A stretch of 63,957 nucleotides of DNA, counting the filler, from Welwitschia mirabilis (taxonomy: Eukaryota), in assembly GCA_051453625.1 (NCBI GenBank). It is 5 parts of one record of this genome, joined end to end, with 100 filler letters (N's around TTAATTAATTAA, not from the genome) between each part and the next. Parts side by side here need not be neighbours in the genome. Positions count along the whole stretch, not along the records: positions 25,096 to 44,186 come from JBOZIK010000001.1; 4 more parts are not named here. One strand, given 5' to 3'. The position numbers and the translations under genes were made by a program. Shown here piece by piece: positions 7,376 to 62,936 of the stretch. The notes below the pieces were generated by a model. The model was not told the DNA's origin. It ran no database searches and saw only the letters and a program-made list of their open reading frames with translations. The stretch's first letter is position 1; each line of letters begins with the position of its first letter.

Positions 7376-7676
7376 TCATGTTTCAGTCTCTCTGCCACTT
7401 GAATTTGCTGGAAATACTTTTCGAATGAATTCCAAGAAACGCTGTGAATACAATTTGGGTTCAACTGCTGAAATAGAAGCTGAATCAAATTGACATGATT
7501 TGTAAGCATGTTCAATTTTTTTAGCAAGGTTGTATTCCTGTAGGATATCAATGATCCCCAGATAGAGAACTACATCATATGCTTCATCAAATAAGTGCAC
7601 TGTATTTTGGTCTCTCTCTCCTCGTGGTTTGTGGTCTGCTCTGGCAGGCATGTTCACTCCAAGCTGAACTCGTAAT
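7376..7676 (-). CDS. PIP5K: Phosphatidylinositol 4-phosphate 5-kinase (plant subgroup B, PIP5K7/8/9-like), terminal coding exon
   Basis: Encodes [13 protein letters not shown]...[57 protein letters not shown], the PIPK catalytic C-terminus. AG acceptor at 7678-7677; TGA at 7378-7376. Confidence 0.95.
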
Positions 7677-7778
7677 CTACAATTATTTAGAATGACTTAT
7701 TTGGTGCTAATGCTGAACATAAAAGAATTCACAAAATCAGAGAGATTAGAAACTGAATTTTAACGGAGGACCAGTTAC

Positions 7779-20800: not shown

Positions 20801-22050
20801 TCATGCGTAAGTGAGTGCCAGAATGTGAACAATGTGATATTCTTACCCTTTGTCATGATAGTGTTTGTGGAGGTCACTTTTGTGGCCAACAGACTTCTAT
20901 CAAAATCCTACATGCCAGTTTTTATTGGCCTACCCTATTCAAAGATTCATTTGACTTTACTAGAAGATGTGATGCTTGTCAGCACTTTGGTAGCCTTTCC
21001 AAATCTCAAGACATGCCCCTCTAACCTATCTTAGAGTGTGAACCTTTTGATTGTTAGGGTATAGACTTTATAGGCCCTCTTAAATCATCTTCGTGGAATA
21101 TAAATTATATTTCAGTGGCCATGAATTATGTGACCACATAAGTAGAACCCATTTTTACAATCACAAATGATGCTAAAACCATATGTTCTTGTCTTTGATC
21201 CAACATTTTCCATGGGTTTGGCTTTTCTGGAATCTTGATTAGTGACCAAGGTACTCATTTTATAATCAAGGTTCTTAGGAAACGTCTCCTTTACATTGGA
21301 ATAGATCATAGAATACCTAGTACCTACCCTTCACAAACCAATGGCCAAGCTGAAAACGCTAATAAAGAAATAAATAAAATGCTCCAAAAACTTATCTTTA
21401 GATATAAGAAGTCAGGGTCTTTGAAACTCAGTGATGTACTTGGGGCTTATTATACTACTTGGTGTACGTCACCTGGTTGTTCACCTTATAAACTCGTGCA
21501 TGCTAAAACTTTGTGTTTTCCTATTGATGTGTGTTATGTTAGGATCAAAAACACCCTAGACGCTAGACAGGAAGTGAATAGGGTTTTTAAACTTTTACAC
21601 TAGAAAATGAACAGTTACATATCAATCTGAAAAAATAAAAGCATATGAAAACTGCACTAGATCTTTTATAGTTGTTCATTTCTCCAACCTACTCCACTCT
21701 TAGAGGGCAGCACAAAGCCTTGAGCCTCCTGGTTCCTTGAAATGAAAAACTTTTTCTTCCAGTACAAGCAACCCTCTATTCTAAGGTTCAGGAATTATAA
21801 TCTTTGCTCCTTTAGAGTAATACAAAGAAGAGAAGAATAGTCTGATGTCTATTGAGTCTAATGAGCATAGATCATCAGCATTGAGTACAACTTGAAAGAT
21901 TAAGATTTACTTAGTTCAGAGCACTGGTCCAATAAGAAAAAGAAGAACTTTCTTTTGATATGATCACAATAGATTTCCAAAGGTCAGACCAGTGGTGTTT
22001 TCTTCATTGATCAATACATTTTTATGTTTAGCACTCAAGGAGGTAAAGAG

Positions 22051-23076: not shown

Positions 23077-25096
23077 AGTGACATGTCTTACACATGGCAC
23101 ATTTCTTGGTGTTGTTTTTTTAAATTCATATCATATACTCTATCTTATTTTAATTTTATATACTTGCTATTTATATCCTAAGTTTCATTGTTATAATGTA
23201 ACACTTTAATCTTAATATGTTTTATATAATATTTGTTTATTATTTACTTCGGAAAAGCATAATTGGAAGTTACATTTTATATTATCTCTCCACAACTCAA
23301 CCTATGCACATTGTGAAGGCTTCTATGAGCAAAATATCATTTTATTTTTAATTAATCTTGTATAATTGCTATGATTATAATACGTTTGTCTAATGACAAA
23401 ATAATATAATGATGTTTTCTTCATATCAAATGTTCTCTAGCTGTTTCATCTCTCATCTAAGATCTATGATTGGCTTTATAAGGTTTTCATCATTACATAA
23501 TGAAAGGTTACAGATTCTTATGGATGGTATGAAAACATACATTATTTGTGTCTTCTTTAACATCTTGATTTAAATTGTTAAGTTTTCTGCGTGTCTTCAC
23601 ATGATAGATCTTTAGTCCATAAGAGGCCTAGACCTTCTACGTCACTTCAAGGAACATACAACATTGTACTTATTGTAGAATTGAATTCACACCAGATTTT
23701 AGATCCTTAAGGACATTCCTAGGGCGTTTTCATCCCCTATCAAATTTTTAAAGGTTTGATTTATTGATGGCACTAGGAAATGATCTTTCTAGGTGGGTTC
23801 ATGGAGTAACCTAAAGTCTCTGCACATTACCATCTCTTTTGGGTGTGAGCTGACTTGAATTTATCTGTATCGATCCTGCTCTAAGAAACATGCTAATCTT
23901 CTCTCTCTTGATCTTGGGGGAAAGATCTTTTCAACCTTCAAGCTTGAAGGTATCTGTGTTTTATGTTTGGGTGCATATGAAGCCAATATGGAAATAAGTT
24001 TAATAGTCTTTTACATTAACTTCTGCTTTTGTTGACATGTCTAATCTGGAGCGATATTAACAAGTTAAACCTAACTCCAAAAATGTGTATTCAAAATGTG
24101 GGATAATTTCTTTTAATCCAGTTTTCACTTCAACATGGTGTGTGAGAAAATCAACAAATGAATTTTGTTTATTTTGTTCAGTGATCAAAACAATCGCGAT
24201 TGGAGATTTATCAGGAGAAGTTCCAGACTAGGAATGGAGATTGATCGAGAGGGGTTCCATGGTGGTATTGAAGATTAAGTAAGCAACAAAAGGGATCAAA
24301 TTGGGAAAAAATTCTGTAACATGCGATAAAATATGAAAAAGAAAGTGATTTTTTAAAAGAATAATTCAACTTGAATATGCTTATACATATTACAAAACAT
24401 GCATAAAAAATACTACTACGCATACAATTTCAATATTTTTAAATCCTATGATAAGATGAATAAGAAACAAATTGAAGGCAAAAGTTTTGTTTTGTTCGTT
24501 CATTACAAAACAACCAAACTGCAAATGAGAAGTGAAATGAAAACATAGAAAGTCAAAATAAGGGTCAACATGAAATAGGGTAAGAAAGCAGAAAATAAGA
24601 AGTCAAAGATACCTAAACTCTGAATCCTAGCAATCTAAAACCCAATGAACATTAAACGAATCAAATTTTGAGTTTGAATTATTCTTTAACAGGTTTCTTG
24701 TTCACCATCAATGTCAACTCTATAGGTTTATGTGTGCAGCAGCTCTCTTCTCAAGGGTCTTTCAACTGGTTTTTTCATAGCAGGTCTCTTCTTAAGATGC
24801 TGGGCAGTGGGTCCAGGGTAGTTTTGTTTGTAGAGATAATTGGTTTCAATGATGAGCAAGGACTAGCAACAACGCATCGTTTCATGTGGAAAATTAGAAG
24901 CTGTGCCAAACGGGACGTCCGCATCTCAAACTTGGATGTCCGACTCTGGACACGGTCCAAATGTATGGGGACGTCTGCCCGGCTAACTGGGACGTNNNNN
25001 NNNNNNNNNNNNNNNNNNNNNNNNNNNNNNNNNNNNNNNTTAATTAATTAANNNNNNNNNNNNNNNNNNNNNNNNNNNNNNNNNNNNNNNNNNNNA

Positions 25097-27183
25097 CCAC
25101 ATATAGAACTCAAATGAGTTCACCACATAAAACTGCATATAGAACTTAATAAAGTTCACCACATAAAAGAACCCAGTATGAGTTCACCAAGTAAAAGAAA
25201 ATGATGGTTTTTTAGTGGTTTTTATAACAGAATCATCCCTAACAATGTGGACTTACTATTACCATGGAACTAACCTAACAACTTACATATAAAGATTAAT
25301 GTCAAGAAAAGTGTCCCATACCACTTTTCATGTCATTATCTTAACATGTAAATTGTATTACACTTGGAACAAGAATGAAACCTCCAAAGCTATGGGTCCC
25401 TTATTCAATTTCAAGCAATCCAAAATACAAACTTAATAACACAAGCACAAAAGAGCAATATTTTGCTTACTAGTAGACATATATCATATCTTTTAACAAC
25501 AAATGACCATCGACAGAAATGTCTTATGTAATAAGAGTTGGAAACTAATTGACAAGAAATCACGACATCATATCATCTTTACATGACCAGTGCTGCAGAT
25601 GGCAAAACAACGCTGAACTATTGTCAAGGAGACATTGATTTTATTTTCATTTATTAGATGATGGGGGCCTGCTGAAAAGATAGTTGACAGAACAAACACC
25701 ACCTAGAATCTCTTCCACATGGAAATGACAAATGGACAAGAAGATCCCTACATTCTCCATCCCCTCAAAAAACTTCTCATGAGCTTGACTTGCTACATAG
25801 TTTTCGTTGATGCAGTTTTGTTCCACGCAGATTGATTCAAGCCTAATGATGATGCAGTCCATCTGGGTAATCCAATGATGATCCATAACTTCATCATCAT
25901 AAAAAGCCACATCATGATTCTGGATTAGCAAAATGAAAATCCCAAAAGATTTTCAGACGTTTTGCGGATTTGTAGTCCTCTCATAAGAACCATTTTCTTA
26001 AACTCGTAGAAATTGACTTTGCCATTGCCATTCTCATCGGCGTTGTGGATCACCTTCTCACTAGTAGCGTCAAACTACCCCTCTGCAAATCCAAAGGCAA
26101 CAAGCACCTTTCCAAGCTCCGCTGTAGAAGTAAATCCAATTTGCACTTCTATGTGTTCAAACCCTTAATAATCATGAAGAATAGCACTAGATCTAAACCT
26201 GCATTCTTATTTCTGGAGAATCCCATTCAACTAATTCCAAGAAATATTCATGCAAATCATAGACATTCCAAATAAAAAACTATGATTCTGCAAACTCCAA
26301 AGGCATTTTGGACCTCCAACACTAAAATAGCAATAGAAATTTCTAACAAGAGAAAATTTCATGCAAATCCAACGTGAACCTTTAGAGAATTGTTAAAAGT
26401 CCTTGATTCTTGCATTGGTAATAGCATGACATCCCTTGGTCTTCATCTTTTTGAGATTCCGACAATACATACCGATGTTGCAGAGTCTGTCATCACTAAT
26501 CCTCAAAACATGTCGATTGCAGCAAAGCATGAAACACATCACATGATCAAATCTTTGACAACTGAATCCTTCCACTTCATACTCGCACTTGCAGACGCAC
26601 AAACCATTTTTGCGATCCAACAATGTGAGGCTGCTAAAATGTGTGAAAGGCACTCATCCAGAAGAGACGTTGAGTAATCACACAACAATGAAAACGAAAT
26701 GTCCTTTGACAACATCAGAACCACCGTGCAGTGCGAAATGCATGAAGTCGTTGCAGTTGTGGTAGTAGAACCATGTGAGTTCATTATTGAAGAAGCAACC
26801 TGTTGTGCTTCATCACCGAGAAGAGGCATCTAATCAGCAGGTAAGCCCTCGGCCCCTCCACATTACTCTTGTGCTTGCCCTCTAAATTTTCACACATGTA
26901 ATTTCGCAGTAGAAGCACAATCGCCACTGTCACCCATAAAACAGAGAACACATCAAGGATTGCAATTCCTTTGTTGCTTCTTTTGCATTTCTGTGGGGAT
27001 CCAAATCTAAAAGCACTTCTGCAAAAGGATGACAATATAGCTAATGCTCGTATTGGCTCTGATACCAATTGTAAGATCAAAAGATCCTTGCAGCACAACA
27101 AGAAGTTGTGGAAGCACCCATAGGGAGCGTGTAGGATTTCTGTGAAAGAACAACTCATTTTTTAATTATCATTTAGGGTTTTA
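25097..27183 (-). mobile_element. Putative non-autonomous LTR element carrying gene fragments
   Basis: Perfect tRNA-Met PBS (rc TGGTATCAGAGC) at 27056-27067 next to a TG LTR edge at 27070. Possible other LTR ends CCCTAACA at 25244. No gag/pol motifs inside; both ends cut by gaps. Confidence 0.55.
25980..26130 (-). pseudogene. Calmodulin-like (CML) C-terminal EF-hand fragment
   Basis: Reads STAELGKVLVAFGFAEG*FDATSEKVIHNADENGNGKVNFYEFKKMVL: canonical 12-residue EF-hand loop DENGNGKVNFYE preceded by the EL..VL..LG helix; one internal stop. Confidence 0.75.
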
Positions 27184-29350: not shown

Positions 29351-32300
29351 TTATGCTAAGACGGGATCAACACATAGGCCTAGATTTTTTCTAAACAACA
29401 CAAATTTCTCTTCACTTAAACTTTTAGTCATGATGTCAGCAATCTGGCTATCAGTTGAAATATATTCCAGTGTGACGATGTTCTTCTGAACATGCTCATA
29501 AATGAAATGATGTCGAATGTCAATACGCTTAGTTCGTGAGTGTTGAACTGGATTTTTTGTGATGTTTATTACACTAGCGTTATCACTATAAATTTTGATA
29601 TTACCTATGTTGATACCAAAGTCTACCATCATTTCTTTCATCCATAGGAGTTATGTGCAGCATGCTCTAGCAACAATGTATTCCACTTCTGTTGTGGATA
29701 GAGATGTAGTGGTTTATTTTCTACTTAGCCAAGAAACTAAACAATTTCCCATATAGAAGCAGACACCAGTAGTGCTTTTCCTGTCATCAACACATCCTGC
29801 CCAATCAACATCATTATACCCTATAAGGTCTAACATTATGTCATGAGCATACCAAAGGCCAAAGTCTTGAGCGGACATGACACACCTTAAAATTCTTTTA
29901 ACTTGGATCAAATAAGACTCTCCAGGATCTGCTTGATATCTTGCACACAATCCTACACTATGGGCAATGTTGGGTATACTAATAGTGACATATAGAAGAC
30001 TACCAATTAGACCTCGATAGAGTTTTTGGTCTACTTTCTTTCCCAGTTCATCCTTAGTAACTTTAAAATTGGTTGACATTGGGTTTTTAGCATCATTTAA
30101 GTCAGACATGTTGTATTTGATCAATACATCGTGAATATACCATCTTTGCCCTATTTTATTTGAAGACCTAAAAAGAAGTTTAACTCACCCACTAAACTCA
30201 TTTCGAATTCATCTTGCATAAGGTCAACAAATTCTAAGGCGAGAGAGTTCTTAGTCGACCTAAACACTATAGCGTCAACATATATCTGAGCAATAAGAAT
30301 GTTTTCCCCATTGTGTTTGATAAAGAGGGTTGGATCTACGTTTCCTTTTGTAAAACCATTCGTTAAAATTAAAGAATTCAATATATCACACAACCTCCAG
30401 GTGCTTAGCTTTATTCAATTTATAAACATGATTAGGAAATTTTGAATCAACAGAACTTGGAGGTTGTGCAATAAAAACCTGCTCATTTATAAAACCATTC
30501 AGAAAAGCGCTCTTTACATCCATTTGAAATAATTTTATTTTGTGAAAGCAAGCACAAACAAGTAACATCCGAATGGCCTCTAACCTGGCAACTGGAGCAA
30601 ATATTCTCACCATAGTCGATTACTTCTTACTGGTAATAACCTTGGGCTACCAATTTTGTACTTTGATTGACAAACAAATATTCCATCTTTGCCCTGATTT
30701 ATTTGATGACCTAAAAAGAAGTTTAACTCACCCACTAGTCTCAATTCGAATTCATCTTGCATAAGGTCAGCAAATTCTAAGGCGAGAGAGTTTTTAGTCG
30801 ACCCAAACACCATAGCATCAACATATATCTGAGCAATAAGAATGTTTTCCCCATTGTGTTTGATAAAGAGAGTTGGATCTACATTTCCTTTTGTAAAACC
30901 ATTCGTTAAAATTAAAGAATTCAATGTATCAAACAACGCTCCAAGTGCTTGTTTCAAACCATAAAAAACTTTATTCAATTTATAAAAATGATTAGGAAAT
31001 TTTGAATCAACAAAACTTGGAGGTTGTGTGATATAAATCTCCTCATTTATAAAACCATTCAGAAAAGCGCTCTTTACATCCATTTGAAATAGTTTTATTT
31101 TGTGAAAGCAAGCAAAAGCAAGTAACATACGAATGGCCTCTAACCTGATAACTAGCGCAAATGTCTTACCATAGTCGATTATTTCTTATCGGCAATAACC
31201 TTGGACTACCAATTTTGTACTTTGATTGACAAACAAATATTCCATCTTTGCCCTATTTTATTTGAAAACCTAAAAAGAAGTTTAACTCACCCACTAGACT
31301 CATTTCGAATTCATTTTGCATAAGGTCAGCAAATTCTAAGGCAAGAGAGTTCTTAGTTAACCCAAACACTATATCGTCAACATATATCTGAGCAATAAGA
31401 ATGTTTTCCCCATTGTGTTTGATAAAGAGGGTTGGATCTACATTTCCTTTTGTAAAACCATTCATTAAAATTAAAGAATTCAATATATTGAACACCACTC
31501 TAGGTGCTTGTTTCAAACCATATAAAGCTTTATTCAATTTGCAAACATGATTAGGAAATTTTGAATCAACAAATCTTGGAGGTTGTGCAATATAAACCTC
31601 CTCATTTATAAAACCATTCAGGAAAGCGCTCTTGACACCCATTTGAAATAATTTTATTTTGGGAAAGCAAGCAAAAGCAAGTAACATACAAATGGCCTCT
31701 AACCTGGCAACTGGAGCAAATGTCTCACCATAGTCGATTCCTTCTTATTGGCAATAACCTTGGGCTACTTGCCTTGTTTTGCATGATATTATGGTTTTCA
31801 TCTCTTTTGTTCTTTAAAAACCACTTCGTTCCTATGACATGTTTTCCATTGGATTGAGGGACTAAGTCCCAAACTTTGTTACACTCAAATTGATTGAGCT
31901 ACTTTTGCATGGCGAACATCCAAGATTCATCGTTTTCTGCTTCCTGAAAATTTTTTGGCTCTATATCAAATAAAGAACAAAGAAAACTATGGTTGATATG
32001 CTTACCACTTCTGGTAGTTGTTTCCATTGAAGGATCGCTTATAATGTTGTTTTTAAGATGATCCCTTTGGGTTCTCAAAGTCAGGGAAGAGCATTTCTAA
32101 AGATCTTTGTCTTCATTGACCTCTCTTGATGTAGTGGTAGTCACGTTAACACTAGCTTGAGAGGAAGATGGAATACATATACTGTCATCATTCTTTTCTA
32201 TGCCTGCATTGCCTAAGTTAAATTCATCAATTCGTACATGAACTATTACTTCCACCTTATAACAACTTTTATTATACACTCTATAAGCTTTACTAGATGT

Positions 32301-35031: not shown

Positions 35032-35097
35032 CTTTAAGATAACCTAAAATGACAGAGAAAAAACCCTAATCTAGAGCAACCAGTCTCTGATACCAAT

Positions 35098-36363: not shown

Positions 36364-36810
36364 CTCTATTGAGATTTTTGACTTAAACACCAATCAAAAG
36401 TTTAAAAGTAAATGGACAACTATTGAAGTTATACCAATTACCTGATGATTGTCGTTATACCCTGGATATGACTAAAGCAAATCACTTAGATGATCCTCTT
36501 ACCCAAGAGGAGAATCTTCCCTTTGCCATTGTCTAAATAATTTCCTAGTTGGATACCTTGGTTGAGTCATCTTATTGCTTGATCATCTCTATTGAGATTT
36601 CTGACTTAAACACCAATCAAAAGTTTAAAAGTAAATGGACAACTATTGAAGTTATACAAATTACCTGATGATTCTCATTATACCGTGGATATGACTAAAG
36701 AAAATCACTTAAATGATCCTCTTACCCAAGAGGAGAATCTTCCCTTTGCCATTGTCAAAATAATTTCCTTTTGGATACCTTGGTTGAGTCATCTTATTGC
36801 TTGATCATCT
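36364..36810 (+). repeat. 223-bp tandem duplication at the end of gypsy pol
   Basis: CTCTATTGAGATTT.TGACTTAAACACC starts at 36364 and again at 36587. Confidence 0.9.
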
Positions 36811-38200: not shown

Positions 38201-41200
38201 TGCGTCATTTTTGTATGTACTCTCTAATATTTGTACTCAAAACTCCATTTCACACACACATGTACATATCTATCAAGTTTGAGACCCATTTTATGATATT
38301 TGCACTCCATGTGTGATTTTTGAGTACTTCACATTTCCATTTCTACAATGCCATTACTGGCAAATGTATAAGTGGGGGCTGATCTACTAAAATCATAATC
38401 ATTTTGATGTCAAGTTTATATTCTAGGAGAGTTTATAGGATTTTTACAAGTGTTTAGAGAGTAACTTACCCTCCAAAGGAGTCAAAAGAAAATCTAATTT
38501 CAAAAAGAAAATCTAATTTCACAAAGTGATTAAAAATGTCATCGTCTACTTCATTGTCTGGACAACGTAGGTGGATAACAATCACTATTCATACATTTTC
38601 GAGAGATGACATCACATCTAGTTGAATTTGGCCTTGGAATTGCATGGTAAAGTTAGTGGAACTCAATCTATCCATCTGTTTGATTATTAACCCTTGTCAG
38701 TTTGACATCGCAACATAATTATCTGCTTGCCTTATCAAAGACTAACAGATGCTAAGTGGGGGGCTATATTGCATGGCCAAATTGCCCCTATTTAACAATG
38801 TTTTGAAACATGTTTTTAGGTTGTATTAATAGCTTTCCAAAGAATTTACAATAATCATGCATAACCACCGTGAGGATTACAAAAAGCATGAATTTTCAAC
38901 ATAACTGACCACTTTTGGATGTTGTCAAGGATTTCTCTATTCTTGACCCTTCTAAGAGATCATAGTCAAGAGGCATGCCAATTACAACATCACAATGACC
39001 CCACGAGCATCAACATAACTTACAGAGATATTTAAAAGCCTATTTGAACAGTCCTTCAAAACCAATTTAACACCAAGGGAAGCTGATTAGAGCTAAGGTT
39101 ATTGCAAAGAGTGTGGTCCACCTACTCATTTGGATGACACTTGCAAGATGACACACAGTGTAAGTTCACAAAAACCTCATTGTTTCTTGAGGATCGTCCA
39201 CTACGGTGGTTCAGATAAAGCTAGGCAGACGATAATAAGCAGATACACTAGGAAGGCACATAGAGGGCAGTTAGTGGTAGTTGAATGATCATCCCCTATG
39301 GTCATCTGGATGATACCAATGAGGAGACTGCCCTAACTGATGTAGAACTAATCCTATTTGTTATGAAATTGTTAATCTAATTGCATCTTTTCGCTTCCTA
39401 CCCCTTGGTGTCCTCAGTTACCAATTTAAAACTATAAATACCCTCCTTTGTCATCCATTTTAGGCTATCCATTGTATATTAAGTGTTCTTGTGATGATTT
39501 GGACACCAATTGGCCAAGGGATCCATCTAACTTAGGAGGGAAGCTTTCCTTGGTGTTGGGATAAGACTCCTTCACTGAGGGGTGACTATTTGTAAGTGGA
39601 TTTAATACTTTGTCATTAATAAAAGATCAAGTTGTTTATTCAAATTTCTCTCTTCTCTTCTTTAAATTCTACGTTGGAATCAAGTTAATTGCAATTAAAG
39701 TTAATTTTGGTTTTGATATAGGATATAAAGGCCAACTTGGGTGATAATAAGTTCATAAACTTGGTTAATCAATCGCATTTAGGATTGCATTAAATTCTTG
39801 CATTGTCATTTCATCTTATTTTCATATCCATCATTGCATTGTTATCTACTTTCTACTCTAAAATTGAATAAAAGATCATTCCCTTTTTCAATGAGTCAAT
39901 TTTCCAATTAAGCATTGAATATCCCACCAGTTTACGACATTGGTTTGTCTCCCTATACTAGTATTTGTTCATGTGAATTAGATATTTAAATTGCAAGTTA
40001 TCATTGAAGAAGATTAATTGATTTGAAAAGCACACGACACACTTCACAACAAGTAGCAAGAGCGAGTCTTCCCACGTCTTGTTGGGTTGTAGCAGTTATC
40101 ACTACTGCATAACTCATTAACATGTCACCTCATTCAACACTATACAGATAGATTCTAAAAATTCTATCGAAAGGAAAGGAAATCTCCTATCAGCACTTGA
40201 TACTCTTTGGCTATGAAGCTTATGTTAATGTATAGAAATCTCACAGGTCCAAGTTGGATTATAAGGCATGCAAATGTATCTTTGTTGGTTATGGCAATAA
40301 TAATTATGCACATACACTTTGGCATGCTGGTTGTAAAGAAGTGGTTACATCCCAAGGATGTGATCTTCAAAGAAGATTCTCTATTTTATTTGAAGCAACT
40401 TGAGAATTAGAATGGGAAAACATCTACTTTTGGCTTCTCTTCGAAAGAGTATACCAAAGTATTTGCTCATGACAAAAATGATGAAAATGAGAAAAAAGAA
40501 GATATTTCTAGCAATTAAGACATTCCTCGTGGTGAACAAGAAGACAGATCAAGAATAGGAAAAGAAAGATGCTAAAGATTTAGAAGAATAGGCTCCTCTG
40601 AAGGGTTTTAAATCCCTTAAAACGCAGACAGAAATATGTGATGAGCATTAAGAGGAGAGTGCATCATGCATACAAATTGAAACTAAGCTAATACATCAAC
40701 CATGGAGGCCCCATCCCCTAGCCATTCTGAGGACAACAACTAGGCATGTTCTTCATTAGCATTGCAATAAGAATTTAAGCATGAGGCCGTAGAAGTGCTT
40801 CCCATAATATCCTCACTTAGATCCATATTTCATGGATCTCTTTTCATCATCCTTCTATGTTTGGATCTTTGACTTANNNNNNNNNNNNNNNNNNNNNTTA
40901 CATAGTTGATTGTCTAATATATTTGTCTTTTCTATCTTTGATTTTCATACCAACATTAAATTGTTGGCATTACCCAAAGAAAGTTCCAACATTTTAATGA
41001 CAGCCTCTTGATGTGTGCACTATGCAATTTCATGTCACACATCATTTGCAATTCACATATTTCGAAAGGTCAATTATGTTCTCCTTCCAATTCTTAAAGG
41101 AGTTTTCCAAACATGGTATTAAGGACTCTTCCCTCAGTCCTCGTTCACTCTACCTCTTCCTCTTGTAAAGTGGAACACAAACCATGTAATATGAGTGTGC

Positions 41201-41887
41201 CCTTTCCTTGCTTTGGGCTACACATTAAACCAGCTTCTTCGCCTTGAAGCTACATTCATGCCTCTCTCATGGGCATCTTAAAACATATAACTCCTTTACA
41301 TCACATTTTTGCTCAAACAAATACTAAAGGGGATAGAAAGGTACCTTCTTGATATTCTAGGTAACTTTTATCCTAAATGGGGTTATAAATGTGGAATTTA
41401 AAATACCTTACCAAAAAAATTTAATAGTTTACCCCCTTAATAGTAATGAGAATTTTGGATAAACAATGTTAACAATAAAAATTTTAAGAATCAAACCACT
41501 TTTAATGGCATAGTGTTCCTCCACTCCATGACACTTCACTGCACTTCCATATCCCTCCTCTTCTTCTACTTTAGTCATACCAGAAGAATTTCATGTGCAT
41601 TTCATCGATCTGGGTAGTAATTTCTGTGTTTCTTTAATACTCTATAACCATGGTAACGAGATTCTCAATAAATTGAGTATTTTCATCTGCCCATTTTTCC
41701 ATAGGCTCCATGAGATCAGCCACCACAATTGGTTGCACAGGCAACGTGAACGAATTAGCTTCCATTTGGCTAAAGACAATAACAAGCATCTACGTGAGCG
41801 ATGCTTTGGCTGTCCTTGGATGTGGTGGCCGTTTCTCAGGCTCCTCGCTTGATCCCTTGTCCATTTTCACAAGAAAACTCTGAGATC

Positions 41888-42144
41888 AAACAACAACGAG
41901 GGCATTCTCAAGCTAAGAATGAAAACCCTCGCCTTTGGGATAGTGACGCATGATCTCTGCAAAGCGCTAGAACTCCAACGAACCGTTGATATTCTTGGTT
42001 TTCATGATAGATTTGAGCTCCACTCGCATAGAGTTTTCACCGAGAGCTCTGATGACCATATCGAGATTCGTTGGTGTCATGTGGCCATCCTTGTCCGAGT
42101 TGAAAAGACTAAAGGCCTCTCGCATTTTCTCCTCTTCATTTGGT
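41888..42144 (-). pseudogene. CML13/CML14-like calmodulin-like fragment
   Basis: EEEKMREAFSLFNSDKDGHMTPTNLDMVIRALGENSMRVELKSIMKTKNINGSLEF*RFAEIMRHYPKGEGFHS*LENALVV parallels MKEAF.[64 protein letters not shown]. Confidence 0.85.
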
Positions 42145-42278
42145 GATTGCTCCAGATTTTGATTTGGAATTGAACCTATGGCAAGTTTATTACTTAGAGT
42201 CTTGCATTCTTGAACAAGCTTTTTTTTTAATTTAATCTTAAATTGTTGCAAAATGCCGGTATTTTGTTTAGGGCTCAT

Positions 42279-42540
42279 TTCCCGACAAAGTTGCTCTTCG
42301 CCGATGGCTCTTATGCCACCTGCATTGTGCACCGCTTCATGACAAAGCTGCAACACAATGACACGACCACCGCGCTGGTCTTTTGCACAACCCATGCCGC
42401 CTCTGACGATGCCTTCTTTACAGCTATGGAGGAACTTGGCCTGCACATGATCACTGGCAAAGTGTTAATCGGCTGCAACGCACCGCCCGCACTAATGGAC
42501 ACAACGGGTACTGCCATTGGTACTTCAAAAAAGCATTTGA
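42279..42540 (+). pseudogene. guaD: Internal fragment of a bacterial-type guanine deaminase (amidohydrolase superfamily)
   Basis: FPTKLLFADGSYA...FMTKLQHNDTTTALVFCTTHAASDDAFFTAMEELGLHMITGKVLIGCNAPPALMDT is collinear with the bacterial GuaD pattern FPTE..F.D..YA...F...LLRNGTTTALVF.T.H..SVDA.F.AA....RMI.GKV.MDRNAP..L.DT. Confidence 0.88.
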
Positions 42541-44286
42541 AGATGACAGAGATAAGCAGAGTCTTCTCTCTTGGAAATTGATGTGTGGTCCATCCCAAAT
42601 TGGATTGTGGAAGATGAGCTCTGAGGATGAGCTCTGGCCGCTTTCACTCAAAAGACCCAAGGAAAAAATCTGTTCAAGAGAGAAATGAACACCCAAGTGG
42701 GTGAATCAGAGACTGCACTTGTAGCAGTGGTCCATTCATGCTCCATTCATATTGAATCTTTGTAGCCAAGAGGATCCTGACTGTAAATCCTTTCTGCCAT
42801 TGTCTTCCTATTTCGTATTTGCAAGGACTCCAATGCAGTCCTGTAGACAATGGATGAGATCTTTCTTTATGATAGCTCATTTGGAATGGATCTTTACTGC
42901 GTCTGGCAGCTAAGCCAACAACTTAAAAGACTCTGATACCATATGAAGGGTTTCAAATCCCTTAAAATGCAGACAGAAATACATGAAGAGCATTAAGAGG
43001 AGAATGCATCATGCATAAAAATTGAAACTAAGCTAATACATCAAACATGGAGGCCCTGGCCCCTGGCCATGCCTAGGACAATGGTTGGGCATGTTCTTCA
43101 TTAGCATTGCAATAAGAACTTATACACGAGGCTGTAGAAGTGCTTCCCATAATATCCTCACTCAGATCCATATTTGATGGATCTCTTTTCATCATCCTTC
43201 TATGATTGGATCTTTGACTTAGCTTCCCGCTAAAGTGGGAAGTTACGTAGTTGACTGTCCATTATATTTGTCTTTTCTATCTTTGATTTTCATACCAATA
43301 TTAAATTGTTGGCATTAACCTACAAATATTCTCCTCCTTTAAATTATGTTTAACTAACTAATCAAGGAAAACTAGAAACTATTTTAAAAGTAATTCATGC
43401 AGTAATTGGAAGCAGTGGGAGGTTGCAATGCATGTTTAGTTGAAATCACCCATGGCTAATCACACATTGGAATTGGTGTAGGTATCAAACAGTAAGAAAG
43501 CACAACACAACTGATGATGCTTTTAGCTAAAGGAAGATCTACATGGTTTTACTAAGTATGAGACAAGACTTATGGTAAAGGGTTTTGAATAGAAACCTGG
43601 TATTAGTAATTTCTCTAATTGTTAAGTAATATTCTATTAGAATCGCTTTGTCTTTGACTACCTATTTAGATCTAGAACTAGAACAACTAGAAGTTAAAAC
43701 TACATGTTTGGATGTGGATCTGGAAGGAGAGATCTATATGATCCAACAAGAAGGCTTTGTGGATCCCAAGCATCCTAATTTCGTATGTAGACTAAGAAAA
43801 AGTCTGTATGGTCTTAAACAACCCCTCAACAATGGTACAAGAAGTTTGATTCATTTATAAAAGTACAAATAGAATTGCAAAAGCAAAATAAACCACTATA
43901 TTAACTTCACTGACCAAATGGGAGATAAGTTCATTATGTTATTATTATATGTTCATGATATGGTTATAACAAGAACTAATAAGGGTGAAATTAAATGCCT
44001 AAAGCATGACATGGGTAGGACTTGGAGCTAGCCAAGCAAATTCCTAAGATGAAGATAATTAAGGACAATAGCCATAAACTATTGTGGCTCAGTCAGGTAG
44101 ATTCCATCTTCAAGGTTTGGGAGTGTTTTTTCTTTTTTTTTTCCTTTTTATAATTTTTTTGGGGTAGATGGAGTGTGCTCATAGTANNNNNNNNNNNNNN
44201 NNNNNNNNNNNNNNNNNNNNNNNNNNNNNNTTAATTAATTAANNNNNNNNNNNNNNNNNNNNNNNNNNNNNNNNNNNNNNNNNNNN

Positions 44287-57748: not shown

Positions 57749-60700
57749 ATAGAACAAATCACACACAATGACTTCACTGATGTCAACCCAGTGCATCAAC
57801 AAGGAATCAAGGTTCAATGACTAGCAAGAAGACCAAAAATAGATGTTCTTGGAATGTGCAGAATAGGCAATGATTGGTAGGATAAAGAATATGCATACAA
57901 AACATAGACAGGAAGCCAATGGAATGGGATGGATGCTCTACAAATATGAACAAGAAAAGTAAACAAGACAGATAGTAACCTATTAAGTAGGATGATAAAG
58001 AAATGATGAGAAAGAACAATGGCCAGAATGATGGATGAAAAGTTGTTGGCAAACAAACAATTAGAAGGGTTTGATTAGGATAAGTAGAAAGCTCAAGAAG
58101 ATGAGCAAAAGCACTCCATAAGAGCCAATTTAATTGTTATGGATAGATGATTGGAAGCATTTGTATAGGATAGGTGGATGAATCCTAAAAAAGGATTGGA
58201 ATTATTTGTGTTGGATGGGGAAATGGCTTACATGGGCAGTCAAAGTGTTTATGTAGAAAGCATTGTTGGCTATAGGTTAAAGACTGAGGATGGCTTTAAA
58301 TGGGAAAGTGCACGAATGTGCTTCGAACCTAGGGCACACACTATAGGTTAGAATGCAGAGGGTAGCTCTGGCAAATGTGTGAGAAGTAGATGGATGCACT
58401 AACTGTAGAGATGATAGATTTCAATGATGAATGAAGAAACTGGTTTCAGCACATTGTTACTTGCAGAAATTCAGAAGCTGTGCCAGACGGGACGTNNNNN
58501 NNNNNNNNNNNNNNNNNNNNNNNNNNNNNNNNNNNNNNNTTAATTAATTAANNNNNNNNNNNNNNNNNNNNNNNNNNNNNNNNNNNNNNNNNNNNTTCGA
58601 TCTGGATTTGTTTAGATATTACAGTAAGCACAAACCCAGGGATTAAACTCTAGTGTTCAATTGATTTCGGGTCTTTCAATTCCTTTTTTGAAAGAACTCT
58701 CAAGAAATATCGCAAGGTTTCAAAATGATCTAATGACAAGTGTCTAGTAAAAATTTCAGCTAATTGATCTTGAGTGGAAACATATTCTAAGGATATTACC
58801 TTCTTTTCTATCAGATCGCTAATANNNNNNNNNNNNNNNNNNNNNNNNNNNNNNNNNNNNNNNNNNNNNNNNNNNNNNNNNNNNNNNNNNNNNNNNNNNN
58901 NNNNNNNNNNNNNNNNNNNNNNNNTCAAGAAATATCGCAAGGTTTCAAAATGATCTAATGACAAGTGTCTAGTAAAAATGTCAGCTAATTGATCTTGAGT
59001 GGAAACATATTCTAAGGATATTACCTTCTTTTCTATCAGATCGCTAATAAAATGATACCTGAGTTCGATGTGCTTGGTGCGGGTATGTTGAACATGATTG
59101 TGAGAGATTTGAATTACACTGGAATTGTCACACAATATAGAAACTTCTGATATTACCACTCCAAAGTCTTTAAGAGCTTCTTTTATCCACAAAGTTTGAG
59201 TGCAACAGGCCCTGGAACCAATATAGTCAGCCTCTGCAGTTGACAAGGATATGAAACTTTACTTTTTGCTATGCCATGCTGTGAGACAACTACCAAAAAA
59301 GAAGCATCCCACACTCGTGCTCTTTCAATCATCTCTACATCTTGCCTAATCCACATCACTCTATCCTATTAAGTTTAAAGTGTTTTTACATGGATACCAT
59401 ATTCCAACATCAATTGTACCTTTGATGTAGCAAAGCATCCTTTTTGCAGCTATCAAATCTGATTCCTTGGGCTTACCTTGATATCTAGCGCATAGTCTAA
59501 CACTAAAAGATATGTCAGCTCTACTAGCTGTTAAGTTTAGCAGGCTTCTAGCAATGCTTTTATATAATTTTTGATCAACATCTTTGCCACCCTTATCAAG
59601 AGCGCATTTGACATTTGTAGCTATGGGAGTGTTCACAGACTTTGTATTATCCAATTTGAACTTCTTAATTAAGTCCATAGAATATTTCTTCTAATTTATA
59701 AAAAACCCATTATTAAGTTGTTGAACTTGAAGTCCTAAGAACATGTTTACTATTCCTACCATGGTCTTTTCAAATTCAGAACTCATTAATTTTGTGAGAT
59801 CAATTAACAATTTTTCATGTGCTCATCCATATACGATATCGTGCAAATAAATTTGAACTAGAATGAACTCATTGCTTATGGTTTTTTCTAAAGAGAGTTC
59901 TATTTAACAGATCCTCTAACAAATCCATTTTAAAGCAGACATGAGGATAGTTCATCATACCAAGCTCTAGGGTCTTGCTTCGGCCCATACAATGCTTTGT
60001 GCAATGTATAAACATGATCTGGGTAGTGAGGATCCACAAAACCTTATGGTTGTTTAACATAGACTTCTTCAGCAATGCTTCCATGTAGGAAGGCACTTTT
60101 TACATCCATTTGAAAAACCTCAATTTTCTTAAAACATGCAAATGCAAGAAACATTCGAATGGACTTGAGGCTAGCTACTGGTGCAACAGTGTCACCACAA
60201 TCAATTATTTCAATATGNNNNNNNNNNNNNNNNNNNNNNNNNNNNNNNNNNNNNNNNNNNNNNNNNNNNNNNNNNNNNNNNNNNNNNNNNNNNNNNNNNN
60301 NNNNNNNNNNNNNNNNNNNNNNNNNNNNNNNNNNNNNNNNNNNNNNNNNNNNNNNNNNNNNNNNNNNNNNNNNNNNNNNNNNNNNNNNNNNNNNNNNNNN
60401 NNNNNNNNNNNNNNNNNNNNNNNNNNNNNNNNNNNNNNNNNNNNNNNNNNNNNNNNNNNNNNNNNNNNNNNNNNNNNNNNNNNNNNNNNNNNNNNNNNNN
60501 NNNNNNNNNNNNNNNNNNNNNNNNNNNNNNNNNNNNNNNNNNNNNNNNNNNNNNNNNNNNNNNNNNNNNNNNNNNNNNNNNNNNNNNNNNNNNNNNNNNN
60601 NNNNNNNNNNNNNNNNNNNNNNNNNNNNNNNNNNNNNNNNNNNNNNNNNNNNNNNNNNNNNNNNNNNNNNNNNNNNNNNNNNNNNNNNNNNNNNNNNNNN

Positions 60701-62816: not shown

Positions 62817-62936
62817 NNNNNNNNNNNNNNNNNNNNNNNNNNNNNNNNNNNNNNNNNNNNTTAATTAATTAANNNNNNNNNNNNNNNNNNNNNNNNNNNN
62901 NNNNNNNNNNNNNNNNTGGACAACAATTAAGAATAC

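What the first reader, a model, noticed from the sequence alone, without database searches (positions are those of the whole stretch)
42279..42540. Bacterial guanine deaminase (guaD) fragment inside a plant LTR retroelement: candidate bacterium-to-plant transfer
Seen: ~87 codons collinear with bacterial GuaD motifs (FPT..FAD..YA, L.(R>H)N(G>D)TTTALVFCTTH, (R>H)MI.GKVL..(R>C)NAP..L.DT). The DNA is locally GC-rich (acg acc acc gcg ctg gtc) and gap-free with plant sequence on both sides, between a PBS and an LTR. Several departures from consensus are single G>A or C>T changes (cgc>cac, ggc>gac, cgc>tgc). Established: flowering plants deaminate guanosine with GSDA (cytidine deaminase family) rather than amidohydrolase-type GuaD, and TTTALVF/GKV.MDRNAP is the bacterial rather than fungal or animal signature. 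Inference: bacterial nucleic acid was captured by a retroelement and then decayed under plant methylation, which argues against fresh contamination.
Basis: partly seen in the sequence, partly recalled or inferred. Interest (0 to 1): 0.92.

Follow-up and report, generated by a model that had tools for sequence, protein, structure and literature searches.

The report
Decayed guanine deaminase fragment in retroelement
A dead, roughly 280-base piece of a bacterial-type guanine deaminase gene lies inside an old plant retrotransposon; it is genuine genomic DNA, but whether it came straight from a bacterium cannot yet be told.

Summary
Window 42264-42542 (+) encodes 89-93 gap-free, stop-free codons that match residues ~92-190 of guanine deaminase (NCBIfam E 3e-21; E. 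coli GuaD 4e-14, against human 0.03 and yeast 0.07). No other part of the gene is in the window.

The piece lies antisense in a 2.7-kb non-autonomous LTR element (388-bp LTRs, K2P 0.116, tRNA-iMet-type PBS). A calmodulin-like fragment lies beside it. It is not contamination: 14 runs from 5 studies and two organism labels hold the stretch, and an independent contig bridges both junctions without a difference.

It is a pseudogene relic. 9 of 28 strongly conserved columns are changed, which in simulation needs about 0.15-0.25 substitutions per site.

Its source is unresolved. Nothing in four large searches is more than 55% identical, and the best hits are Proteobacteria. The tree gives no supported placement.

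Literature shows that a bacterial-type guanine deaminase exists in a moss and in Chlamydomonas. An old plant or other eukaryotic donor therefore cannot be excluded. I could not bring such sequences into the session, nor establish the host lineage.

Direct bacterium-to-plant transfer stays the favoured but unproven reading (about 0.45). The case is of moderate interest.

The parts
42264..42542 (+). Guanine deaminase (GuaD-type amidohydrolase) pseudogene fragment. It covers 93 codons, equivalent to residues ~92-190 of a ~435-aa enzyme. The secure core is 42279-42530.
   Evidence: Matches. All 36 full-length queries match only here. 9 of 28 conserved columns are changed. GC 0.513, GC3 0.61, CpG O/E 0.78, TpG+CpA O/E 1.55.
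42231..42581 (+). Open stop-to-stop frame (116 codons) that contains the GuaD fragment. It is not a gene.
   Evidence: In simulation an open frame survives in 41% of draws at d=0.2.
41970..42131 (-). Calmodulin-like EF-hand fragment (N-lobe, about CaM residues 10-60), ending in a stop. It is in sense orientation relative to the LTR element. Weak likeness may continue to about 41880.
   Evidence: Pfam EF-hand_7 E 4.5e-4 and EF-hand_6 5.9e-4. PDB calmodulins reach E about 1e-13. GC3 0.61, CpG O/E 0.88.
42944..43331 (-). 5' LTR of the element (the element reads on the minus strand).
   Evidence: Direct repeat of 40599-40986. 367 comparable sites, 25 transitions, 14 transversions, no indel, K2P 0.116. 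Contig depth is in the hundreds to thousands.
42931..42941 (-). Primer-binding site. It is an 11-nt match to the complement of the tRNA-iMet 3' end (motif recalled) and lies 2 nt from the LTR.
   Evidence: There are 4 such 11-mers in the window (3 minus, 1 plus), each beside retroelement sequence.
40599..40986 (-). 3' LTR of the element. It holds 21 N at 40877-40897.
40987..41535 (-). LTR-proximal internal part of the element that is repeated in the genome. It has no recognisable polypurine tract.
   Evidence: Contig depth in X5 is 6921 to 1870 over 40990-41353, falling to 42 by 41535. CpG O/E 0.19.
41536..42930 (.). Low-depth internal segment that carries the two gene fragments. No gag or pol is present.
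   Evidence: Contig depth is 0-75 against hundreds to thousands on the LTRs. 10 other ORFs had no Pfam hit better than E 0.056. No second copy in the window.
40594..40598 (.). TCCTC, left copy of a possible 5-bp target-site duplication.
   Evidence: The same pentamer directly follows 43331.
43332..43336 (.). TCCTC, right copy of the possible target-site duplication.
   Evidence: Caveat: the LTR end at 43331 is not the canonical dinucleotide.
42220..42228 (+). Run of 9 T (A-run on the minus strand) in the spacer between the calmodulin-like and GuaD pieces.
   Evidence: Read directly.

Best explanation
The segment is dead cargo. It is a roughly 280-bp, promoterless, non-functional relic of the coding sequence of a proteobacterial-type guanine deaminase. 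It lies antisense in the internal region of a degenerate, non-autonomous 2.7-kb LTR retroelement (40599-43331, minus strand), beside a decayed calmodulin-like fragment.

Shown: it is real nuclear DNA shared by several samples and two organism labels. It covers only about a fifth of the enzyme. It has lost residues that every sampled relative keeps.

Inferred: it lost selective constraint at about 0.15-0.25 substitutions per site ago. That is earlier than the divergence of this element's LTRs (0.058 per copy).

Inferred: it reached its place either by template switching or read-through during reverse transcription of the element, or as filler DNA at a break repaired inside the element.

Inferred, and the weakest step: the ultimate donor was a bacterium (a Pseudomonadota-like guaD) rather than a eukaryotic gene. 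My sub-odds are: relic carried in an LTR element 0.9; direct bacterial donor 0.45.
For: Family assignment. NF006679 scores 3.3e-21 and TIGR02967 7.4e-20, against 3.7e-4 for the next family. E. coli GuaD scores 4e-14, against 0.028 for human and 0.074 for yeast.

Isolated fragment. All 36 full-length relatives match only 42255-42542; the next best hit anywhere in the window has E 0.22.

Relic status.
- 9 of 28 columns that are >=90% conserved in 54 bacterial sequences are changed.
- 7 of these carry residues seen in none of the 54.
- 5 of the 9 are reachable by one G>A or C>T step from the consensus codon (the codon reasoning is inference).
- In simulation from the 54 bacterial DNAs, 9/28 is reached in 0.2% of draws at d=0.058, 5.6% at 0.1 and 58% at 0.2.
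- The frame stays open in 41% of draws at d=0.2.
- The LTR pair shows 39 substitutions and no indel, so a gap-free relic is not odd here.

Genuine and old.
- The stretch 41950-42940 is held by 14 runs of 5 studies and 2 organism labels.
- A 618-nt contig of X12 (42075-42692) bridges both junctions with 0 differences.
- A 387-nt contig of X6 (42302-42688) bridges the right junction with 0 differences.
- LTR K2P is 0.116.

Bacterial leaning.
- The named best hits are Pseudomonadota: Acinetobacter, Pseudomonas, Caballeronia, Acetobacteraceae.
- Mean identity to bacteria is 0.463. Divided by the simulated retention of 0.67-0.73, this gives about 0.63-0.69, at or above the between-class bacterial mean of 0.60 (inference).
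- The motif TTTALVF occurs in 24 of 30 gamma-, 1 of 8 beta- and 0 of 12 alpha-proteobacterial rows.
- GC3 is 0.61 and CpG O/E 0.78. The host PIP5K exon has GC3 0.27 and the LTRs have CpG O/E of about 0.2.
- Guanine deaminase is described as absent in plants, with Arabidopsis named (PMC12541418, passages).
Against: No donor was found.
- Maximum identity is 49% among the 150 listed of 324 representative hits.
- It is 55% over 69 aa and 51% over 85 aa among the 80 loci listed of 591 confirmed bacterial genome loci.
- It is 52% among the 120 listed of 7268 proteins.
- It is 53% among the 80 listed of 576 confirmed metagenome loci.
- It is 44% among 4 viral loci.
- Three of these lists were capped, so a closer relative may have been missed.

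The tree gives no supported placement: the end branch is 2.25 against a median of 0.24. A clade with the alpha-proteobacterial group is not rejected (AU p 0.436).

A bacterial-type guanine deaminase exists in a moss (PMC3493653) and in Chlamydomonas (PMC12541418). No eukaryotic guanine deaminase other than the human and yeast PDB entries could be compared.

The host lineage was not determined.

The adjoining, clearly eukaryotic, calmodulin-like fragment has the same GC3 (0.61) and a similar CpG O/E (0.88).

The piece is antisense to the element, which a simple switch to a sense mRNA does not give.

The possible target-site duplication rests on an LTR end that lacks the canonical dinucleotide. 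Loose ends of other family copies suggest the LTR ends a few bases further on.
Confidence: 0.45

Rival explanations
1. The fragment comes from the plant lineage's own guanine deaminase gene. That gene is itself of ancient bacterial ancestry, as reported for a moss. A transcript or pseudogene of it was captured by the retroelement before or while the lineage lost the enzyme. There was no recent bacterial transfer.
For: Yue et al. 2012 list a Physcomitrella guanine deaminase acquired from alpha-proteobacteria (PMC3493653, passage and Table 1). LTR elements routinely capture host gene fragments, with Bs1 and the rice and sorghum surveys as examples (PMC13317346, passages). The neighbouring cargo is a eukaryotic calmodulin-like piece with the same GC3 and CpG level. 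Part of the cargo (41797-41962) has a roughly 92% paralogue elsewhere in the genome (table 8). A clade with alpha-proteobacteria is not rejected.
Against: None of the 150 listed hits of the exhaustive search exceeds 49% identity. The 20 that I looked up are bacterial or metagenomic. An expressed or annotated gene of the host or a close relative should have stood out at well over 60%. The decay estimate implies a constrained source within roughly the last tens of millions of years (rates recalled), whereas the enzyme is reported absent from Arabidopsis. The TTTALVF motif is seen in 0 of 12 alpha-proteobacterial rows. The GuaD piece shows no second, diverged copy in the laid contigs.
Confidence: 0.3
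2. The fragment, perhaps together with the calmodulin-like piece, came from another eukaryote that has a bacterial-type guanine deaminase and GC-rich codons. Candidates are an alga, oomycete, fungus or nematode. That would make it eukaryote-to-plant transfer.
For: The two adjoining fragments share GC3 0.61 and CpG O/E 0.78-0.88, unlike the host PIP5K exon at GC3 0.27. Calmodulin is eukaryotic. Bacterial-type guanine deaminases are reported in Chlamydomonas and, by title and abstract only, in C. elegans (PMC13419446, search listing).
Against: Nothing in the searches points to any particular eukaryote. The region next to the calmodulin-like piece (41797-41962) has a paralogue in the same genome, which suggests a host source for that part. 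Calmodulin-like genes can be GC3-rich in plants (recalled, not tested).
Confidence: 0.1
3. The open frame is a functional exon or a small protein under selection, such as a divergent amidohydrolase-derived domain. It is not a relic.
For: 116 codons are open in AT-rich surroundings, with no indel against the family.
Against: Only a fifth of the fold is present and no further exon is in the window. 9 of 28 conserved columns are lost. The open frame is expected in 41% of neutral simulations at d=0.2. No read of the oligo-dT RNA run X19 lies on 41991-42627 (about a quarter of that run was read). The piece lies antisense inside a transposon.
Confidence: 0.03
4. Bacterial contamination or a chimeric assembly joined bacterial DNA to plant sequence.
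For: The GC content differs from the flanks. The window has many N runs.
Against: The stretch is held by runs of 5 studies and two organism labels. Contigs from independent studies cross the junctions without a difference (X12 crosses both, X6 the right one). The sequence is less than 55% identical to any bacterial protein and carries pseudogene-type changes.
Confidence: 0.02

Closest known systems
Bs1-type LTR retroelements with transduced gene fragments (maize Bs1; captured fragments in rice and sorghum LTR elements)
   Same: It is a non-autonomous LTR element whose internal region holds pieces of unrelated cellular genes instead of gag-pol. Here there are two pieces, calmodulin-like and GuaD-like. 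The mechanism and examples are as reviewed in PMC13317346 (passages).
   Different: The two pieces lie in opposite orientations and form no hybrid reading frame. No transcript was seen. The cargo part has low contig depth, so there is no sign that the chimeric element multiplied. One piece is of a gene family reported absent from seed plants. That review contains neither 'bacteria' nor 'horizontal' (0 occurrences each).
Proteobacterial guanine deaminase GuaD (NCBIfam NF006679 / TIGR02967; E. coli GuaD, PDB 6ohb)
   Same: The fragment is collinear and ungapped with residues 104-192 of the E. coli enzyme. It retains FPT, TTTALVF, DAFF, GKV, NAP and DT.
   Different: It is only about 21% of the protein. 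The metal-binding HxH and the C-terminal half are absent from the window. Identity to any relative is 40-55%. 9 of 28 conserved columns are changed. It scores 75.6 bits against a cut-off of 351.
Guanine deaminase of Physcomitrella patens, acquired from alpha-proteobacteria (Yue et al. 2012, PMC3493653)
   Same: It is a bacterial-type guanine deaminase sequence in a plant nuclear genome.
   Different: The moss gene is reported as a complete, presumably functional gene of ancient acquisition. Ours is a decayed fragment in a transposon. I could not compare sequences.
OsGDA1, the rice amidohydrolase reported as a plant guanine deaminase (PMC8360030)
   Same: It belongs to the amidohydrolase superfamily and is claimed to have guanine deaminase activity in a flowering plant.
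   Different: In the passages read it is described as most similar to S-adenosylhomocysteine deaminases. The fragment instead matches the GuaD equivalog at 7e-20 and the nearest such deaminase model (NF005557) only at 3.7e-4.

Membership tests
Guanine deaminase (TIGR02967 / NF006679, EC 3.5.4.3) | Significant, collinear sequence match to the family model. | tested here: met
   E 3.3e-21 and 7.4e-20 over profile positions 99-186/433 and 73-161/401. There is an ungapped match to E. coli GuaD.
Guanine deaminase (TIGR02967 / NF006679, EC 3.5.4.3) | Whole-protein score above the curated cut-off, meaning a full-length (about 430 aa) TIM-barrel enzyme with its metal site. | tested here: not met
   75.6 and 71.3 bits against cut-offs of 351 and 375.4. 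All 36 full-length relatives match only 42255-42542 in the window.
Guanine deaminase (TIGR02967 / NF006679, EC 3.5.4.3) | Family-conserved residues kept within the covered region. | tested here: not met
   9 of 28 columns that are >=90% conserved are changed (E>K, A>V, L>Q, G>D, V>T, A>T, M>I, D>G, R>C). 7 carry residues seen in none of the 54 bacterial rows.
LTR retrotransposon (non-autonomous, Ty1/copia-like priming) | Two direct long terminal repeats. | tested here: met
   40599-40986 and 42944-43331 are 388 nt each. 328 of 367 comparable sites are identical, with no indel.
LTR retrotransposon (non-autonomous, Ty1/copia-like priming) | Primer-binding site complementary to a tRNA 3' end next to the 5' LTR. 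| tested here: met
   An 11-nt match to the tRNA-iMet-type motif (motif recalled) lies at 42931-42941 on the minus strand, 2 nt from the LTR.
LTR retrotransposon (non-autonomous, Ty1/copia-like priming) | Polypurine tract before the 3' LTR, and canonical TG...CA LTR ends. | tested here: inconclusive
   The PBS-side end is canonical (CA on the minus strand). The other end, as delimited by homology, is not. No purine tract lies next to 40987. Loose ends of other copies hint at a purine tract that this copy has lost.
LTR retrotransposon (non-autonomous, Ty1/copia-like priming) | Target-site duplication. | tested here: inconclusive
   TCCTC lies directly on both sides of 40599-43331. The chance is 1 in 1024 for fixed ends, but the right end is uncertain.
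LTR retrotransposon (non-autonomous, Ty1/copia-like priming) | gag/pol coding capacity, which would make the element autonomous. | tested here: not met
   None of the 10 other internal ORFs has a Pfam hit below E 0.056. The only recognisable internal pieces are the EF-hand and GuaD fragments.
Bacterium-to-plant horizontal gene transfer | Foreign sequence physically joined to host DNA in independent samples. | tested here: met
   Runs of 5 studies hold the stretch. The X12 contig 42075-42692 and the X6 contig 42302-42688 have 0 differences.
Bacterium-to-plant horizontal gene transfer | Phylogenetic nesting inside a bacterial clade with support. | tested here: inconclusive
   The tree has 55 rows and 90 columns. 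No starred set holds the fragment and its end branch is 2.25. AU p is 0.436 for a clade with alpha-proteobacteria. No eukaryotic rows were available.
Bacterium-to-plant horizontal gene transfer | Absence of the gene from the recipient's relatives. | not testable with these tools
   No genome is held for the window. The host lineage is not determined. Only literature statements are available.
Bacterium-to-plant horizontal gene transfer | An identifiable donor lineage with high similarity. | tested here: not met
   The best identity is 55% over 69 aa (a Steroidobacteraceae MAG) and 51% over 85 aa (Acinetobacter). Other searches gave <=53%.

The most novel reading that the evidence does not exclude
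A piece of a proteobacterial guaD gene entered a plant nuclear genome directly from a bacterium some millions to tens of millions of years ago. It became part of the internal region of an LTR retroelement and has since been inherited, decaying under methylation-type mutation, in at least two plant taxa. That would be a datable footprint of bacterial DNA reaching the plant germ line through, or into, a retrotransposon.
Probability: 0.4. Interest if true: 0.6.

Novelty: new member of a known kind. Interest (0 to 1): 0.4.

Why it matters
If the donor was a bacterium, this would be a rare, physically anchored and roughly datable trace of bacterial DNA entering a plant germ line. Its location in a retroelement would suggest a route, either co-packaged RNA or break repair. 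Such traces say how often foreign DNA arrives, as opposed to how often it is kept as a working gene.

If the donor was the plant lineage's own guanine deaminase, the fragment would instead mark when that lineage lost the enzyme. That bears on the guanine versus guanosine deamination question in plants.

Either way the fragment has no function, so its value is as a marker, not as biology of the host.

Tried and rejected
Protein searches.
- The word-index search with the ORF ('longer') scored none of 209 candidates.
- The same tool found no candidate for the EF-hand piece.
- blastn of the fragment against E. coli genomes gave no match.

Tools that were not available.
- No whole genome is held for the window. 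Other GuaD-like copies and the host's own gene set could therefore not be searched.

Null scans.
- Rfam at gathering thresholds gave 0 matches and tRNA scanning gave 0 genes in the window.
- ESM Atlas gave only generic leads: amidohydrolase clusters, mostly Pseudomonadota, and EF-hand clusters.
- The control genomes of the genome search are all prokaryotes, so they say nothing about plants.

RNA. No RNA holder is listed for the stretch.

Eukaryotic comparison. I could not bring any plant, algal or other eukaryotic guanine deaminase into the session apart from the human and yeast PDB entries. The decisive comparison was therefore not made. The 20 hits looked up by name were bacterial or unnamed metagenomic.

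Host lineage. Whether the host is a flowering plant was not determined. The evidence is limited to a PIP5K exon and Ty1/copia and gypsy-like remnants.

Other structural checks.
- No polypurine tract was found.
- Organism B's run X5 showed no contig on 42355-42627 in the lay. Only about 57% of that run was read, and the index gives it 0.92 of the words of 41950-42940. I read the hole as incomplete reading, not absence.

Rejected readings: chance similarity (E-values), contamination, and a functional exon (see rivals).

Literature. Full-text searches for 'guanine deaminase' with 'retrotransposon' (12 papers), with 'horizontal gene transfer' and 'plant' (24 papers, 15 listed), and with 'land plants' and 'lost' (3 papers) showed no report of such a fragment. 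A date-palm paper's 'guanine deaminase-like' gene is a cytidine-deaminase-fold gene. Supplements were closed. Yue et al.'s guanine deaminase tree (their Fig. S6) may bear on the alpha-proteobacterial claim and was not seen.
Full report
WHAT IS THERE

The frame 42231-42581 (+) is open for 116 codons. Its residues 14-102 (42264/42279 to 42530/42542) match guanine deaminase.
- NCBIfam NF006679: E 3.3e-21.
- The equivalog TIGR02967: E 7.4e-20.
- The next family, a 5'-deoxyadenosine deaminase model: only 3.7e-4.
- Pfam sees just a weak Amidohydro_1 signal (E 0.011).

Six PDB sequences reached E<=1. E. coli GuaD (6ohb) stands out at 4e-14 in one ungapped stretch (chain residues 104-192). Human guanine deaminase scores 0.028 and yeast 0.074.

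An exhaustive phmmer run over 1.84 billion cluster representatives found 324 proteins at E<=1e-3 and 17 at <=1e-10, the best at 7.5e-14.

IT IS AN ISOLATED FRAGMENT

I ran tblastn with the 36 hits of at least 380 aa against the whole window. All 36 matched only 42255-42542, corresponding to about residues 92-190 of a roughly 435-aa enzyme. The next best hit anywhere had E 0.22. The metal-binding N-terminal motif and the whole C-terminal half are absent, so this cannot be a working enzyme.

SURROUNDINGS

Two 388-nt direct repeats, 40599-40986 and 42944-43331, flank the region. Over 367 comparable sites (21 N in the left copy) they differ by 25 transitions and 14 transversions with no indel, giving K2P 0.116.

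Two bases from the right repeat, on the minus strand, lies an 11-nt match to the tRNA-iMet-type primer-binding motif (42931-42941; the motif is recalled knowledge). The element therefore reads on the minus strand. The right repeat is its 5' LTR.

The GuaD piece is antisense to the element.

On the sense strand, at 41970-42131, lies a calmodulin-like EF-hand fragment. It scores Pfam EF-hand_7 4.5e-4 and PDB calmodulins at about 1e-13. It ends in a stop.

Ten further ORFs of the internal region gave no Pfam hit better than E 0.056. There is no gag or pol, so the element is non-autonomous.

TCCTC lies directly on both sides of 40599-43331, which may be a target-site duplication. However, the LTR end on that side is not canonical. 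Loose ends of other family copies suggest that the family's LTR runs a few bases further. I call this inconclusive.

The window as a whole is plant-like repeat-rich DNA. It holds a PIP5K exon (E 9e-23) and several Ty1/copia RVT_2 and gypsy-like remnants.

IS IT REAL GENOMIC DNA?

The stretch 41950-42940 is held by 14 runs from 5 studies, under two coded organism labels. One of those studies may be the source of the assembly.

In the lay, three contigs matter:
- A 618-nt contig of run X12 covers 42075-42692 with no difference and so bridges both junctions of the GuaD piece.
- A 387-nt contig of X6 covers 42302-42688 with no difference.
- A 372-nt contig of X5 (organism B) covers the right flank 43290-43661 with no difference.

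X5 showed no contig on 42355-42627. Only about 57% of that run was read, and the index credits it with 0.92 of the sampled words of the stretch. It could not reach that share without most of the GuaD piece. This last step is inference.

Summed contig depth is in the hundreds to thousands on the LTRs and on 40990-41353, but 0-75 on 41536-42900. The tool warns that depth is not a copy number. Even so, the contrast indicates a repeated element family with low-copy cargo.

Contamination or misassembly is thus very unlikely.

No read of the oligo-dT RNA run X19 lay on 41991-42627 (about a quarter of that run was read).

IT IS A RELIC

I aligned the fragment with the same region of 54 named bacterial genomes. 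Among those bacteria, 28 columns are >=90% conserved. The fragment departs at 9 of them: E>K, A>V, L>Q, G>D, V>T, A>T, M>I, D>G and R>C. At 7 of the 9 it carries a residue seen in none of the 54. From the present codons, five of the nine need only one G>A or C>T step. This last point is inference.

I simulated neutral substitution, with the LTRs' transition share, on the 54 bacterial DNAs.

| d (substitutions per site) | Draws reaching 9 of 28 | Frame stays open |
|---|---|---|
| 0.058 (the per-copy LTR divergence) | 0.2% | 73% |
| 0.10 | 5.6% | 63% |
| 0.15 | 27% | 52% |
| 0.20 | 58% | 41% |

Three conclusions follow.
- The open frame is no evidence of selection.
- The lack of indels agrees with the LTR pair, which has 39 substitutions and 0 indels.
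- The piece lost constraint earlier than this copy's LTRs began to diverge, or it mutated faster.

With recalled plant rates of 0.7-1.3e-8 per site per year, the LTRs give about 4-8 My. The relic gives very roughly 10-35 My.

Composition fits partial CpG decay of a once CpG-rich sequence. In the piece, CpG O/E is 0.78 and TpG+CpA O/E is 1.55. The LTRs have CpG O/E 0.17-0.22 and the window 0.37.

WHERE DID IT COME FROM?

This is the open question. Nothing close exists in any collection I could search.

| Search | Scope | Identity to the fragment |
|---|---|---|
| Representative library | 150 listed of 324 hits | 31-49% |
| Region-profile search of 5.8 billion proteins | 7268 of 8000 scored at E<=1e-10, 120 listed | 44-52%; named ones mostly Pseudomonas |
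| Metagenome contigs | 576 of 595 confirmed, 80 kept | 40-53% |
| Viral contigs | 4 of 32 confirmed | 42-44% |

Of 20 hits looked up by name, the named ones are guanine deaminases of P. aeruginosa and Caballeronia/Burkholderia or IMG entries. The rest are unnamed metagenome or run assemblies. The top 40 hits are 52-98% identical to named Proteobacteria.

In an ML tree (55 rows, 90 columns) the fragment has an end branch of 2.25 against a median of 0.24, and no supported position. Forcing it together with the alpha-proteobacterial group costs 4.1 log-likelihood units (AU p 0.436).

ARGUMENTS FOR A BACTERIAL DONOR

- All best hits are Pseudomonadota.
- The fragment's mean identity to bacteria is 0.463. 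Corrected for simulated decay (retention 0.67-0.73), this gives about 0.63-0.69, no lower than the 0.60 that bacterial classes show to each other (a rough inference).
- The motif TTTALVF occurs in 24 of 30 gamma-, 1 of 8 beta- and 0 of 12 alpha-proteobacterial rows.
- GC3 is 0.61 against 0.27 in the host's PIP5K exon.
- Papers describe guanine deaminase as absent from plants such as Arabidopsis (PMC12541418, passages; PMC3493653, Table 1).

ARGUMENTS AGAINST A BACTERIAL DONOR

- A moss has a guanine deaminase of alpha-proteobacterial ancestry (PMC3493653). Chlamydomonas has two (PMC12541418). So 'bacterial-type' does not mean 'from a bacterium'.
- I could compare no such eukaryotic sequence, and Yue et al.'s tree is in a closed supplement.
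- I could not establish that the host is a flowering plant.
- The adjoining calmodulin-like piece, which is certainly eukaryotic, has the same GC3 (0.61) and a similar CpG O/E (0.88). Composition therefore does not single out the GuaD piece.
- The stretch 41797-41962 beside it has a roughly 92% paralogue elsewhere in the genome. At least part of the cargo is host-derived.
- The rice 'OsGDA1' (PMC8360030, passages) belongs to a different, SAH-deaminase-like branch. It is not the source type.

MECHANISM

The closest known thing is a Bs1-like LTR retroelement carrying transduced gene fragments (PMC13317346, passages). Such cargo is thought to enter by read-through or by switching of reverse transcriptase to a co-packaged RNA.

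The opposite orientations of the two pieces, and the antisense position of the GuaD piece, fit less well with a single switch to a sense mRNA. They fit better with several events, capture of an already mosaic locus, or filler DNA at a repaired break inside the element.

None of these steps is shown; they are inference.

The fragment itself does nothing detectable.

VERDICT

The fragment is a genuine, old, decayed GuaD fragment in an LTR element, and it is not contamination. A direct bacterial donor is the favoured origin (about 0.45) but is unproven. The main rival is an origin in the plant lineage's own guanine deaminase (about 0.3). Another eukaryote as donor comes next (about 0.1).

Interest is moderate. 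This is a molecular fossil whose value depends on settling the donor. That needs the host genome, its relatives and eukaryotic guanine deaminases, none of which were available here.

Noticed in passing
window 7379-7696 (-): The last-exon-like ORF of a phosphatidylinositol-4-phosphate 5-kinase (Pfam PIP5K E 9.2e-23, profile 212-287 of 288). It is the only clear host gene piece seen in the window, and its GC3 is only 0.27.
   Followed up: partly
window 30062-31744 (-): Part of a Ty1/copia reverse transcriptase is tandemly repeated three times with a period of about 559 nt (families D1 and D2, 79-93% identity). Two successive ORFs, 30607-31185 and 31253-31744, encode the same stretch; the first was scanned and hits RVT_2. 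Internal tandem duplication of a pol segment is unusual.
   Followed up: partly
window 29.7-35.1 kb (-) and 48.7-54.7 kb (+): Two related copia-type elements lie in inverted orientation around the finding. Inverted arms I1-I3 are 70-78% complementary. Their tRNA-iMet-type primer-binding motifs are at 35085-35095 (minus) and 48706 (plus), and a further one is at 27057-27067 (minus).
   Followed up: partly
window 24996-25095, 44187-44286, 58496-58595, 62817-62916: Four times the same pattern of N runs recurs: 44 N, 12 bases, 44 N. There are also several runs of exactly 100 N and longer ones (417-713 N). The recurring 44-12-44 pattern suggests a masked repeated motif rather than ordinary assembly gaps.
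   Followed up: no
window 41797-41962: Contigs of two runs (X5: 700 nt; X6: 455 nt) match only this 166-nt stretch, with 14 differences. It therefore has a roughly 92% paralogue elsewhere in the genome. It adjoins the calmodulin-like piece and may mark that piece's parent gene or a third captured fragment.
   Followed up: no
window 19704-21603 (+): Remnants of a Ty3/gypsy-like pol. RT_RNaseH scores E 1.8e-5 at 20356-20811, and the neighbouring integrase-like ORFs have no Pfam hit at E<=0.001.
   Followed up: partly
window 36364-36769: A 183-nt unit is repeated in tandem (36364-36546 and 36587-36769, 96% identity, spacing 223).
   Followed up: no
run X12 (coded), window 42075-42692: A small run of only 221 million letters, guessed to be RNA, holds a clean 618-nt contig across the GuaD piece at depth 4. 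This could mean transcription, a targeted library, or DNA. It could not be decided.
   Followed up: no
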